In this document: positions 47,754-49,306 of the stretch, piece after piece
Layout: each line of letters opens with the position of its first letter
Numbering within the stretch: the first letter of the stretch is position 1
Assembly: GCF_054482525.1 (NCBI RefSeq)
Contig: NZ_CM137006.1
Length of the DNA stretch: 64,000 nucleotides
Direction: 5' to 3' (one strand)
Notes under the pieces: generated by a model
What the model was told of the DNA's origin: nothing
Database searches by the model: none
Seen by the model: only the letters and a program-made list of their open reading frames with translations
Made by a program: the position numbers and the translations under genes

Positions 47754-47759
47754 TCTTTC

Positions 47760-47826
47760 CGGATGCGGCGTAAACGCCTTATCCGACCTGGCTGGAAAGC
47801 AATCGTAGGCCGGATAAGATGCGCCA
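47760..47826. repeat. REP palindromic units, left part of a BIME interrupted by the IS element
   Basis: GGATGCGGCGTAAACGCCTTATCCGACC...GTAGGCCGGATAAGATGCGCCA; the remainder of the second unit (GCATCGCATCCGGCG) resumes at 49261 after the IS. Confidence 0.7.
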
Positions 47827-47858
47827 TGAACTGAACCCCAAAACCTGGACAGTTTCAG

Positions 47859-48737
47859 TTAACCGGCTTTTTGATGCTCAGTCCGGTATTCTACCGGACT
47901 GAGTCCCCCAAGACTGAGTTTTATTCTTTTTTGATTCCAGTAAGTTATGTATTCGTTAACGGCATTTTCCAGCTCTTCTACATTTCTGTAGTCCCGGCGA
48001 TAGTACATTTCTTCTTTCAGGTGACCAAAGAAGTTCTCCATTACCGCATTATCAAGGCAGTTGCCCTTGCGCGACATGCTCTGCACTAACCCTCTGTCCG
48101 CCAGGGCGGACTGATAACTTTTTATCCGGTAATGCCATCCTTGATCACTGTGGAGCAGCGGTTTCTCCCCTTCAGCAAGGCTTTCCAGCCCCTTATTTAA
48201 CATCCGCTTCACCAGCTCCTCTGTAGGCCTGCAGGCCGTTTCCCACGCCACGATTTCCCCGTTAAACAAATCAAGTATCGGGGACAGGTACAGTTTTTGT
48301 CCGCCAGCCCTGAATTCGGTGATATCTGTCACCCATTTCTCACAGGGAGCTTCCGCTTTGAACTGCCGCTGAAGGATATTTTCTGCAGCGAGTCCCATAT
48401 TTCCCCGGTAAGACCGGTATTTCTTCAGGCGCACAGGAGACTTCAGGCCGAGCTGTTGCATCAGTTTTCGCACCGTTTTGCCACTGAACTTAAGACCTCT
48501 TTTCTGAAGCTCACAATGGATCCGCCGGTACCCATAACATCCCCGGTGTTCATGGAAGATGGAGGCTATGAGCTGTTTCACATCAGCATACTTGTCCTTA
48601 GCCTTCTGCAGTGACAGCTGGTAGTACAGCGTGCTTCTGGCCAGCCCTGCAGCCTTTAACAGGTCAGACTGGCAGTGTCCGCACCTCAGGCTCCGGATGA
48701 CTTTCGTTTTTTCTCCAGCTCCTGGCGCTTTTTTTCC
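47859..48737 (-). CDS. IS3-family transposase OrfB (DDE integrase core), expressed as OrfAB fusion by programmed -1 frameshift
   Basis: Frame is open from the A7G slippery site through ...LARSTLYYQLSLQKAKDKYADVKQLIASIFHEHRGCYGYRRIH... to the stop at 47859 (my own translation found no stop). Confidence 0.7.
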   Translation of the reverse strand, partial: GKKAPGAGEKTKVIRSLRCGHCQSDLLKAAGLARSTLYYQLSLQKAKDKYADVKQLIASIFHEHRGCYGYRRIHCELQKRGLKFSGKTVRKLMQQLGLKSPVRLKKYRSYRGNMGLAAENILQRQFKAEAPCEKWVTDITEFRAGGQKLYLSPILDLFNGEIVAWETACRPTEELVKRMLNKGLESLAEGEKPLLHSDQGWHYRIKSYQSALADRGLVQSMSRKGNCLDNAVMENFFGHLKEEMYYRRDYRNVEELENAVNEYITYWNQKRIKLSLGGLSPVEYRTEHQKAG

Positions 48738-49216
48738 AGGAGATGCTCCTGCATGGCTTTCAGATATGCATTTTCTGCGCGAAGATAACGCAGCTCATTC
48801 TTCATCTCTTCCGGCGTCATGTTTGCCTCGTTTTCATGGGTATCATCAGAACGGGTCATGCTTTTCTCCTTCCTGCGCCTGATAAAGGCCTCATTACCAG
48901 ATTTGCGGTAGCCTTTTATCCAGTTTTTAACCGTGTTGTGGCTGGGAATGTTAAACCGGGCAGCTACCCGGGGTAGAGACTCAGAATGCCCGAGAGCATA
49001 AAGAACCACGCAAAGTTTATCTTCAGGAGAATAGCTACGCTTGTGTCTGCAATCCAGTGCCCGAGGACCGTGAAGAAGAAAAAGATTAATCCAGTGTGAG
49101 AGGCTGGTGTGAGAAAGTTGAAAGAGTTTTGCCGTAGAAATGATGCCTGCATGACCAGCCAGGTAGTGATTTACAGCGGCAAGTTTTACTTCAAATGAAT
49201 GTTTCATAAACTGCAC
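48686..49216 (-). CDS. IS3-family transposase OrfA (HTH, leucine zipper)
   Basis: ORF ...MKHSFEVKLAAVNHYLAGHAGIISTAKLFQLSHTSLSHWI...LEKKRQELEKKRKSSGA; slippery CTGGAAAAAAAG near the 3' end. Confidence 0.8.
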   Translation of the reverse strand: MQFMKHSFEVKLAAVNHYLAGHAGIISTAKLFQLSHTSLSHWINLFLLHGPRALDCRHKRSYSPEDKLCVVLYALGHSESLPRVAARFNIPSHNTVKNWIKGYRKSGNEAFIRRRKEKSMTRSDDTHENEANMTPEEMKNELRYLRAENAYLKAMQEHLLEKKRQELEKKRKSSGA

Positions 49217-49306
49217 CTTCAGATGTCAGATTATGTCCAACATTTGGGGTGCAGTTCACCAGCATCGCATCCGGCGATCAGGTCGCACGGTATCAACGAG
49301 ATAAAA

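What the first reader, a model, noticed from the sequence alone, without database searches (positions are those of the whole stretch)
47754..49290. IS3-family element of exactly 1432 bp inserted into a REP palindromic unit between convergent caiE and caiF
An insertion sequence with imperfect terminal inverted repeats (TGAACTG.ACCCCAAA...), orfA plus orfB with an A7G slippery site, and an open orfB frame lies between caiE and caiF. It is flanked by a 3-bp direct repeat CCA and splits a REP palindromic unit: the left flank ends GTAGGCCGGATAAGATGCGCCA and the right flank resumes GCATCGCATCCGGCG. Length, family and REP-targeting match what I recall of IS1397. The transposase frames look intact, so the element may be active. 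It sits about 50 bp beyond the caiF stop.
Basis: partly seen in the sequence, partly recalled or inferred. Interest (0 to 1): 0.5.

Follow-up and report, generated by a model that had tools for sequence, protein, structure and literature searches.

The report
IS1397 insertion sequence in a REP
This is an intact copy of the known E. coli insertion sequence IS1397, inserted as usual into the loop of a REP (palindromic unit) hairpin, here between the carnitine genes caiE and caiF; it is already annotated in public genomes and is ordinary.

Summary
A 1432-bp element lies at 47827-49258. Its terminal inverted repeats are TGAACTG[A/C]ACCCCAAA (15 of 16 matched). Its transposase is on the minus strand: orfA, an A AAA AAG -1 frameshift site, and orfB. 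It is flanked by a CCA duplication. RefSeq labels 100%-identical copies 'IS3-like element IS1397 family transposase, programmed frameshift'. Three complete genomes (PCN033, SCU-102, 19KM1776) match the window at about 100% over 24 kb, insertion included. The uninterrupted site, with one CCA in an intact hairpin, is present in 5392 of 5426 complete E. coli genomes. Only 6 carry the insertion. The duplicated bases form the apical loop of the hairpin. At eight loci sampled, IS1397 sits in the same loop position, in the same orientation, with a 3- or 4-bp duplication. The copies at the cai site in four backgrounds are each closest to copies at other loci, and two have a 4-bp duplication. The same REP was therefore probably hit more than once. 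The fused 449-aa transposase is intact and identical to the cysE-trmL copy, so the element is plausibly active. This is a known element behaving as published, and interest is low. One side observation: an RNA hairpin pairs the element's terminus with the orfA ribosome-binding site.

The parts
47827..49258 (-). IS1397, complete copy of 1432 bp; the transposase reads on the minus strand
   Evidence: Length and ends. 100% identical over 1432 bp to RefSeq copies labelled IS1397 family. It is the only copy in the window.
49243..49258 (-). Terminal inverted repeat at the transposase-proximal end (IRL): TGAACTGCACCCCAAA on the minus strand
   Evidence: 15 of 16 bases match the other end. Weaker similarity continues to about 25 bp.
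47827..47842 (+). Terminal inverted repeat at the transposase-distal end (IRR): TGAACTGAACCCCAAA on the plus strand
48686..49207 (-). orfA, 173 aa with two helix-turn-helix domains, ending in frame 0 at TGA
   Evidence: Pfam HTH_28 matches twice, at residues 8-57 and 64-113. The ATG at 49207 is the start PGAP uses.
48728..48734 (-). Slippery heptamer A AAA AAG for the programmed -1 frameshift, within the run A7G at 48728-48735
Evidence: The frame-0 reading is CTG GAA AAA AAG CGC. The site is invariant in 11 copies.
47859..49207 (-). OrfAB fusion transposase, 449 aa, with catalytic residues D295, D355, E391 and K398
   Evidence: Construction. NF033516 IS3 family, 387 bits. Pfam rve at 286-384, rve_2 at 391-443 and HTH_21 at 210-263. 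Motif positions WVTD, LLHSD and NAVMEN(6)K, with no internal stops.
47824..47826 (.). Left copy of the 3-bp target-site duplication CCA
   Evidence: The empty site has one CCA.
49259..49261 (.). Right copy of the 3-bp target-site duplication CCA
47805..47826 (+). Left half of the interrupted REP / palindromic unit: GTAGGCCGGATAAGATGCGCCA
   Evidence: Joined to the right half it folds as a hairpin whose apical loop is GCCA.
49262..49276 (+). Right half of the interrupted palindromic unit: GCATCGCATCCGGCG
47759..47785 (+). Neighbouring intact palindromic unit in the opposite orientation (CCGGATGCGGCGTAAACGCCTTATCCG). With the interrupted unit it forms a two-unit BIME.
   Evidence: Hairpin. It is conserved in the empty-site strains and duplicated in the B strain.
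49207..49258 (-). Predicted RNA hairpin that pairs the element's first 11 nt with the Shine-Dalgarno-like AAGGUG region just before the orfA AUG. This is a side observation.
   Evidence: Free energy -23.9 kcal/mol, z -5.5, 0 of 200 shuffles as stable. It persists with the caiF 3' flank attached.
47163..47753 (+). caiE, the last gene of the caiTABCDE operon. Its stop is 73 bp from the element.
   Evidence: ORF. RefSeq annotates the identical locus in PCN033 as 591 nt.
49307..49702 (-). caiF, the carnitine regulator. Its stop is 48 bp from the element, and it is transcribed towards the element and in the same direction as the transposase.
   Evidence: ORF. RefSeq annotation is 396 nt.

Best explanation
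The feature is a complete and probably transposition-competent copy of IS1397, an IS3-family insertion sequence. Shown here: its OrfAB transposase is made by a -1 ribosomal frameshift at A AAA AAG, and the insertion lies in the 4-nt apical loop (GCCA) of a REP / palindromic-unit hairpin in the BIME between the convergent genes caiE and caiF, with 3 bp (CCA) duplicated. Inferred from what is established for the IS3 family: transposition goes by copy-out and paste-in through a circular intermediate, catalysed by the DD(35)E domain, and the N-terminal helix-turn-helix part or parts of the transposase direct it to palindromic units. The insertion is recent and lineage-specific, carried by 6 of 5426 complete genomes. 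It lies in 3' intergenic DNA and interrupts no gene. Its most likely effect on the host is small: caiF mRNA loses its nearest 3' REP hairpin.
For: Anatomy: 1432 bp, TG...CA inverted repeats, orfA and orfB in frames 0 and -1, an A AAA AAG heptamer and an intact 449-aa fusion. Family: NF033516 at 387 bits, and Pfam HTH_28 twice, HTH_21, rve and rve_2. Identity: 100% over 1432 bp to copies that RefSeq labels IS1397 family; 1707 genomes hold a copy covering at least 80%; PCN033 is annotated at this very locus. Target duplication: the empty site in L002 is base-identical with a single CCA. Loop targeting: the rejoined spacer folds into two hairpins and the duplicated bases are the apical loop. Eight loci (cai, cysE-trmL, codB-prpE, speB-loiP, cca-bacA, fadA-fre, mntH-ypeC, gntT-malQ) show the same loop position, the same orientation relative to the GTAGGCC arm, and 3- or 4-bp duplications. 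Recency and activity: the copy is identical to the cysE-trmL copy found in five other strains. The site is filled in only 6 genomes. Only 7 of 7612 matching places lie on plasmids. [quoted passage not shown]
Against: No reference IS1397 sequence from ISfinder or GenBank could be compared directly, so the name rests on the PGAP label and on hallmark behaviour. Activity is inferred and was not shown for this copy. No sigma-70-like promoter was found in the transposase-proximal end. No significant frameshift-stimulating RNA structure was found downstream of the slippery site (z -1.19). The primary IS1397 papers were not readable here. The published length of 1432 bp and the 3-4-bp duplication are therefore from my memory.
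Confidence: 0.96

Rival explanations
1. The element is an intact-looking but silent copy. It sits where it landed and no longer moves in this lineage. Possible reasons are a transposase expressed too weakly, a ribosome-binding site sequestered by the terminal hairpin, or missing host factors.
For: No promoter-like site was found at the transposase-proximal end. A strong hairpin covers the orfA ribosome-binding site in any transcript that includes the terminus. Genomes of this lineage hold only about 6-7 matching places. The three genomes identical to the window all keep the insertion.
Against: The copy has zero differences from the cysE-trmL copy and carries intact ends, frames and slippery site. 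Some genomes hold 20 to 40 or more matching places, so the family is expanding somewhere. The hairpin would not form in transcripts that start inside the element.
Confidence: 0.25
2. All six filled caiE-caiF sites descend from one ancestral insertion, and the differences arose later: a 1-bp indel turning GCCA into CCA, and gene conversion between IS copies. On this view they are not repeated independent hits on the same palindromic unit.
For: The closest other lineage, JNE21-003 (99.0% over 24 kb), also carries the insertion. Its IS differs from the window's by 7 of 1432 bases and its flanks by 5 of about 600, which is compatible with common descent for that pair. Orientation and position are the same in all six.
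Against: The empty site is present in 5392 of 5426 genomes, so a single origin would need many precise excisions or transfers. Flanks of the four backgrounds differ by up to about 3%. The window copy is identical to the cysE-trmL copy and the DETEC-P881 copy is identical to a speB-loiP copy. The AR_0077 copy is closest to the codB-prpE and fadA-fre copies, at 5-6 differences against 18-21 from the other cai copies. The duplications are 3 bp in some and 4 bp in others.
Confidence: 0.12
3. The element is a different REP-targeting IS3-family member, such as an ISKpn1-like element or a new isoform, rather than IS1397 itself.
For: No direct comparison with the ISfinder reference was possible. The PGAP wording is 'IS1397 family', which allows some divergence.
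Against: The copy is 100% identical to copies in well over a thousand E. coli genomes that carry this label. Sampled copies differ by at most 25 of 1432 bases. The length matches the 1432 bp I recall for IS1397. The targets are E. coli-type palindromic units, which is the published IS1397 specificity (titles).
Confidence: 0.03

Closest known systems
IS1397 (IS3 family; Bachellier et al. 1997; Clement et al. 1999; Wilde et al. 2001, 2003)
   Same: RefSeq labels identical copies as IS1397 family. The element is 1432 bp, has orfA and orfB with an A AAA AAG frameshift, inserts into the loop of E. coli palindromic units with a 3- or 4-bp duplication, and is almost exclusively chromosomal.
   Different: Nothing found. 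The only strain-specific point is the site, the caiE-caiF BIME, which is filled in 6 of 5426 complete genomes.
ISKpn1 (IS3 family, Klebsiella pneumoniae)
   Same: A relative that also inserts into the loops of palindromic units, according to the titles of Wilde et al. 2001 and 2003.
   Different: It is specific for Klebsiella-type palindromic units. It was not compared by sequence here. The present element carries the IS1397 label and sits in E. coli-type units.
IS621 (IS110 family) and other REP-targeting insertion sequences such as ISPpu9, ISPpu10 and ISPsy8
   Same: They use REP sequences as insertion targets (PMC1525189 and PMC3184786).
   Different: IS621 belongs to a different family, with a different recombinase and no DDE OrfAB. 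It inserts beside the REP stem rather than in the loop.
Fold-back inhibition in IS10 and IS50, which protects against outside transcription
   Same: In transcripts that start outside the element, the terminus pairs with the transposase ribosome-binding site. IS1397 has a predicted hairpin of -23.9 kcal/mol of this kind.
   Different: This is only a prediction. There is no covariation to test because the 5' 70 nt are invariant in 11 copies, and no experiment. The comparison with IS10 and IS50 is from my general knowledge.

Membership tests
IS3 family | Length about 1.2-1.55 kb with imperfect terminal inverted repeats that start 5'-TG and end CA-3' | tested here: met
   1432 bp; TGAACTG[A/C]ACCCCAAA with 15 of 16 matched; ends are TG...CA
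IS3 family | Two consecutive, overlapping reading frames, orfA in frame 0 and orfB in frame -1 | tested here: met
   orfA runs 49207-48686. The orfB frame is open from upstream of the orfA stop to 47859, in the -1 frame.
IS3 family | Programmed -1 frameshift at an A AAA AAG-type slippery heptamer giving an OrfAB fusion | tested here: met
   The heptamer is in the correct phase (GAA AAA AAG) at 48728-48734. The fusion is 449 aa without stops. PGAP notes 'programmed frameshift'. Frameshifting itself was not measured, and no stimulatory structure was found.
IS3 family | DD(35)E catalytic (rve) domain in the OrfB part, with K or R seven residues after E | tested here: met
   Pfam rve 7e-21 and rve_2 2.5e-20. 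D295, D355, E391 and K398. NF033516 at 387 bits against a cut-off of 160.
IS3 family | Short target-site duplication, usually 3-4 bp | tested here: met
   CCA here. 3 or 4 bp at all 11 sampled insertions. Confirmed against the empty site.
IS1397 | Nucleotide identity of at least about 95% to the ISfinder / GenBank reference IS1397 | not testable with these tools
Indirect evidence: identical copies carry PGAP's 'IS3-like element IS1397 family transposase' label.
IS1397 | Insertion into the central loop of E. coli palindromic units (REP) within BIMEs | tested here: met
   The duplicated bases are the apical loop GCCA of the rejoined hairpin. The same position was found at 8 of 8 sampled loci.
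IS1397 | Element length of 1432 bp | tested here: met
   1432 bp in all 11 copies. The published figure is from my memory and was not read here.
IS1397 | Demonstrated transposition activity | not testable with these tools
   Inferred only, from intact frames and ends and from identity with a copy at another locus. Published for the reference element (title of Clement et al. 1999).

The most novel reading that the evidence does not exclude
The insertion may not be neutral. It removes the REP hairpin nearest the caiF stop and leaves no terminator-like site between caiF and orfA, which starts 100 nt downstream on the same strand. caiF mRNA stability could therefore change, and IS1397 would be co-transcribed with caiF under anaerobic, carnitine-inducing conditions. 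The terminal hairpin that covers the orfA ribosome-binding site would then decide whether transposase is made. Separately, the same palindromic-unit loop appears to have been hit independently three or more times, which would make it a natural hot spot.
Probability: 0.15. Interest if true: 0.3.

Novelty: already known. Interest (0 to 1): 0.08.

Why it matters
It matters little beyond correct annotation. The element, its family, its frameshift and its preference for REP loops are all published, and this very insertion is annotated in RefSeq (PCN033, SCU-102, 19KM1776). It is useful as a lineage marker, since the site is filled in 6 of 5426 complete genomes. It is also a clean natural example of repeated, orientation-specific targeting of one palindromic-unit loop. 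A possible mild effect on the caiF 3' end is untested.

Tried and rejected
- **Primary papers:** I tried to read the primary IS1397 papers (PMC94167, PMC95333, PMC169884, PMC135288). None is held. The published length, duplication size and loop-insertion statements therefore rest on titles, secondary citations and my memory.
- **Frameshift stimulator:** I looked for a frameshift-stimulating structure downstream of A AAA AAG. The predicted fold is no better than shuffles (z -1.19) and its stem starts inside the heptamer. No claim is made.
- **Promoters and terminators, 47600-49900:** one promoter-like and three terminator-like sites were found, no more than chance predicts, and none lies at the transposase-proximal end or between caiF and orfA.
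- **Rfam scan of the whole window:** nothing was found in or next to the element.
- **Second copy in the window:** none.
- **Redundant sampling:** five of the first hits I fetched were the same cysE-trmL locus in different strains. They only showed that this copy is identical to the window's.
- **Chance repeat:** I considered that the CCA repeat might be a chance match. The empty site rules this out.
- **Plus-strand ORFs inside the element:** the ORFs at 47871-48089, 48297-48614, 48631-48882 and 48743-48976 lie antisense to the transposase, and nothing was found to support them as genes.

Full report
**1. The observation**

- The sequence at 47500-49600 contains a 1432-bp element at 47827-49258.
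- Its two ends are TGAACTGAACCCCAAA and, on the other strand, TGAACTGCACCCCAAA. That is 15 of 16 bases matched, with weaker similarity for about ten more bases, and the ends are TG...CA.
- The triplet CCA occurs immediately outside both ends, at 47824-47826 and 49259-49261.
- The coding capacity is on the minus strand.
  - orfA starts at the ATG at 49207, which is the start PGAP uses. The mechanical ORF list starts at a GTG at 49216. It stops at 48686 and encodes 173 aa.
  - A run A7G lies at 48728-48735 and reads GAA AAA AAG in the orfA frame, so the heptamer A AAA AAG is in the phase needed for a -1 slip.
  - The -1 frame is open from there to the stop at 47859.
  - Joining the frames at the heptamer gives a 449-aa protein with no internal stop.
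- caiE (+ strand) ends at 47753. caiF (- strand) has its stop codon at 49307-49309, 48 bp from the element. The two genes converge.
- There is no second copy in the window.

**2. What it is**

- A megablast of the element against 5426 complete E. coli genomes found copies that are 100% identical over all 1432 bp. RefSeq annotates them as 'IS3-like element IS1397 family transposase'.
- 1707 genomes hold a copy covering at least 80% of the query. 7605 matching places are on chromosomes and 7 on plasmids.
- In strain PCN033 the identical element lies between caiF and caiE.
- The window matches three genomes at about 100% over 24 kb with the insertion included: 19KM1776, SCU-102 and PCN033. The feature is therefore already deposited and annotated.
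- The fused protein scores 387 bits against NCBIfam NF033516 (IS3 family transposase, cut-off 160).
- Pfam finds two HTH_28 domains in the OrfA part, and HTH_21, rve and rve_2 in the OrfB part.
- The catalytic residues can be read off as D295 (WVTD), D355 (LLHSD) and E391 (NAVME), with K398 seven residues later. That is the DD(35)E-K arrangement.

**3. The target site**

- I joined 600 bp from each flank with a single CCA and searched the same genomes.
  - 5392 of 5426 hold this uninterrupted arrangement at 80% coverage or more.
  - The best hit, strain UID2309220033 (L002), is base-identical across the spacer, with one CCA and no element.
  - The CCA pair is therefore a true 3-bp target-site duplication.
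- A query spanning the element plus 300 bp on each side is covered at 80% or more in only six genomes.
- The rejoined 118-bp spacer folds as single-stranded DNA into two hairpins.
  - One is CCGGATGCGGCGTAAACGCCTTATCCG at 47759-47785.
  - The other is GCCGGATAAGATGC-GCCA-GCATCGCATCCGGC.
  - The duplicated bases are the apical loop of the second hairpin.
- The spacer is a small BIME made of two oppositely oriented palindromic units.
  - From memory, the first resembles the Y-type consensus and the interrupted one the Z2-type consensus.
  - The BIME varies in copy number: 85 bp with one degenerate unit in K-12, 118 bp here, and 208 bp with four units in a B strain.

**4. Is loop targeting a property of the element?**

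I fetched copies at other loci: cysE-trmL, codB-prpE, speB-loiP, cca-bacA, fadA-fre, mntH-ypeC and gntT-malQ. In all of them:

- The element is 1432 bp.
- It lies between GTAGGCC(G/T)GATAAGA(C/T)GCG-type and C(G/A)TCGCATC(C/A)GGC-type arms, that is, in the loop.
- It has the same orientation relative to the GTAGGCC arm.
- Its duplication is 3 or 4 bp.

All of these sites are intergenic. This matches what is published for IS1397: specific insertion into palindromic units of BIMEs, activity in K-12, and transposase-determined specificity. My sources are paper titles and the text of PMC1525189 and PMC3184786. The primary papers could not be opened.

**5. History of this insertion**

- The six filled genomes fall into four sequence backgrounds.
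- The window group has a CCA duplication. JNE21-003 and DETEC-P881 have GCCA. AR_0077 has CCA.
- The IS copies at the cai site are not each other's closest relatives.
  - The window copy is identical to the cysE-trmL copy.
  - The DETEC-P881 copy is identical to a speB-loiP copy in another strain.
  - The AR_0077 copy is 5-6 differences from the codB-prpE and fadA-fre copies, but 18-21 from the other cai copies.
- Nearly all genomes have the empty site. The most economical reading is therefore three or more independent insertions into the same loop, in the same orientation.
- For the pair window and JNE21-003, common descent plus a 1-bp change cannot be excluded. They are 99.0% identical over 24 kb, the IS copies differ at 7 positions and the flanks at 5.

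**6. How it most likely works**

- Shown here: the architecture, the phase of the slippery heptamer, the catalytic motif, the target duplication, and the loop and orientation specificity.
- Inferred from established knowledge of the IS3 family:
  - OrfA alone is made without frameshifting.
  - OrfAB, made by the -1 frameshift, is the transposase.
  - Transposition goes through a circular copy in which the abutted ends form a strong junction promoter, followed by integration.
- Inferred for this copy: it is competent to move. The ends, frames and heptamer are intact and invariant in 11 copies, and the copy is identical to one at another locus.
- Not found:
  - a sigma-70-like promoter at the transposase-proximal end;
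  - a convincing frameshift-stimulating structure.

**7. Consequences for the neighbours**

- No gene is interrupted.
- The caiE side keeps its first palindromic unit.
- The caiF side loses the hairpin nearest its stop. No terminator-like site lies between caiF and the orfA start 100 nt downstream on the same strand. Read-through from caiF into the element is therefore possible.
- A predicted RNA hairpin pairs the first 11 nt of the element with the AAGGUG region just before the orfA AUG.
  - Its free energy is -23.9 kcal/mol, z is -5.5, and 0 of 200 shuffles are as stable.
  - It is also present when the caiF 3' flank is attached.
  - It would block translation of transposase only from transcripts that begin outside the element. 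This is the kind of protection known from IS10 and IS50 (from my general knowledge).
  - It is a prediction only. The region is invariant in all sampled copies, so covariation cannot be tested.

**8. Verdict**

This is a known element, doing what it is known to do, at a site already annotated in public genomes. Novelty: already known. Interest: low.

Noticed in passing
window 49207-49258 (- strand): Predicted RNA hairpin in which the first 11 nt of the IS1397 end (UGAACUGCACC) pair with GGUGCAGUUUA, covering the Shine-Dalgarno-like AAGGUG just before the orfA AUG. Free energy is -23.9 kcal/mol, z is -5.5, and 0 of 200 shuffles are as stable. It could shield the transposase from read-through transcription coming from caiF.
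   Followed up: partly
window 47754-47826 and 49259-49306; L002, L003, L004: The caiE-caiF spacer is a BIME that varies in copy number: 85 bp with one degenerate palindromic unit in K-12, 118 bp with two units in the window lineage, and 208 bp with four units in a B strain.
   Followed up: partly
L005, L006, L007 compared with window 47824-49261: The same palindromic-unit loop carries IS1397 in four sequence backgrounds, with a 3-bp (CCA) or 4-bp (GCCA) duplication. The IS variants there are closest to copies at other loci, which points to repeated independent hits on one site.
   Followed up: partly
E. coli complete genomes: 3485 of 5426 genomes have some match to IS1397, but only 1707 have a copy covering at least 80%. 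Many genomes therefore carry only fragments. Copy number ranges up to 40 or more places per genome, for example BH100. Only 7 of 7612 places are on plasmids.
   Followed up: no
window 48728-48770 (- strand): Just upstream of the slippery heptamer lies a small perfect hairpin, CAGGAG-CAU-CUCCUG, that contains an AGGAG. No significant structure lies downstream. Whether either affects frameshifting is unknown.
   Followed up: no
window 47711-47726 (- strand): A terminator-like hairpin, CCCCTGCAAACGGGGG followed by a T-rich tail, lies inside the 3' end of caiE on the opposite strand. It could stop transcripts leaving caiF or the IS towards caiE, but the number of such sites in the region is no more than chance predicts.
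   Followed up: no
window 3526-3752 (-), 6518-6617 (+), 54395-54447 (-): Rfam matches above the gathering score elsewhere in the window: SgrS sRNA, a TPP riboswitch and the ES003 sRNA. All are expected for this part of the E. coli chromosome.
   Followed up: no
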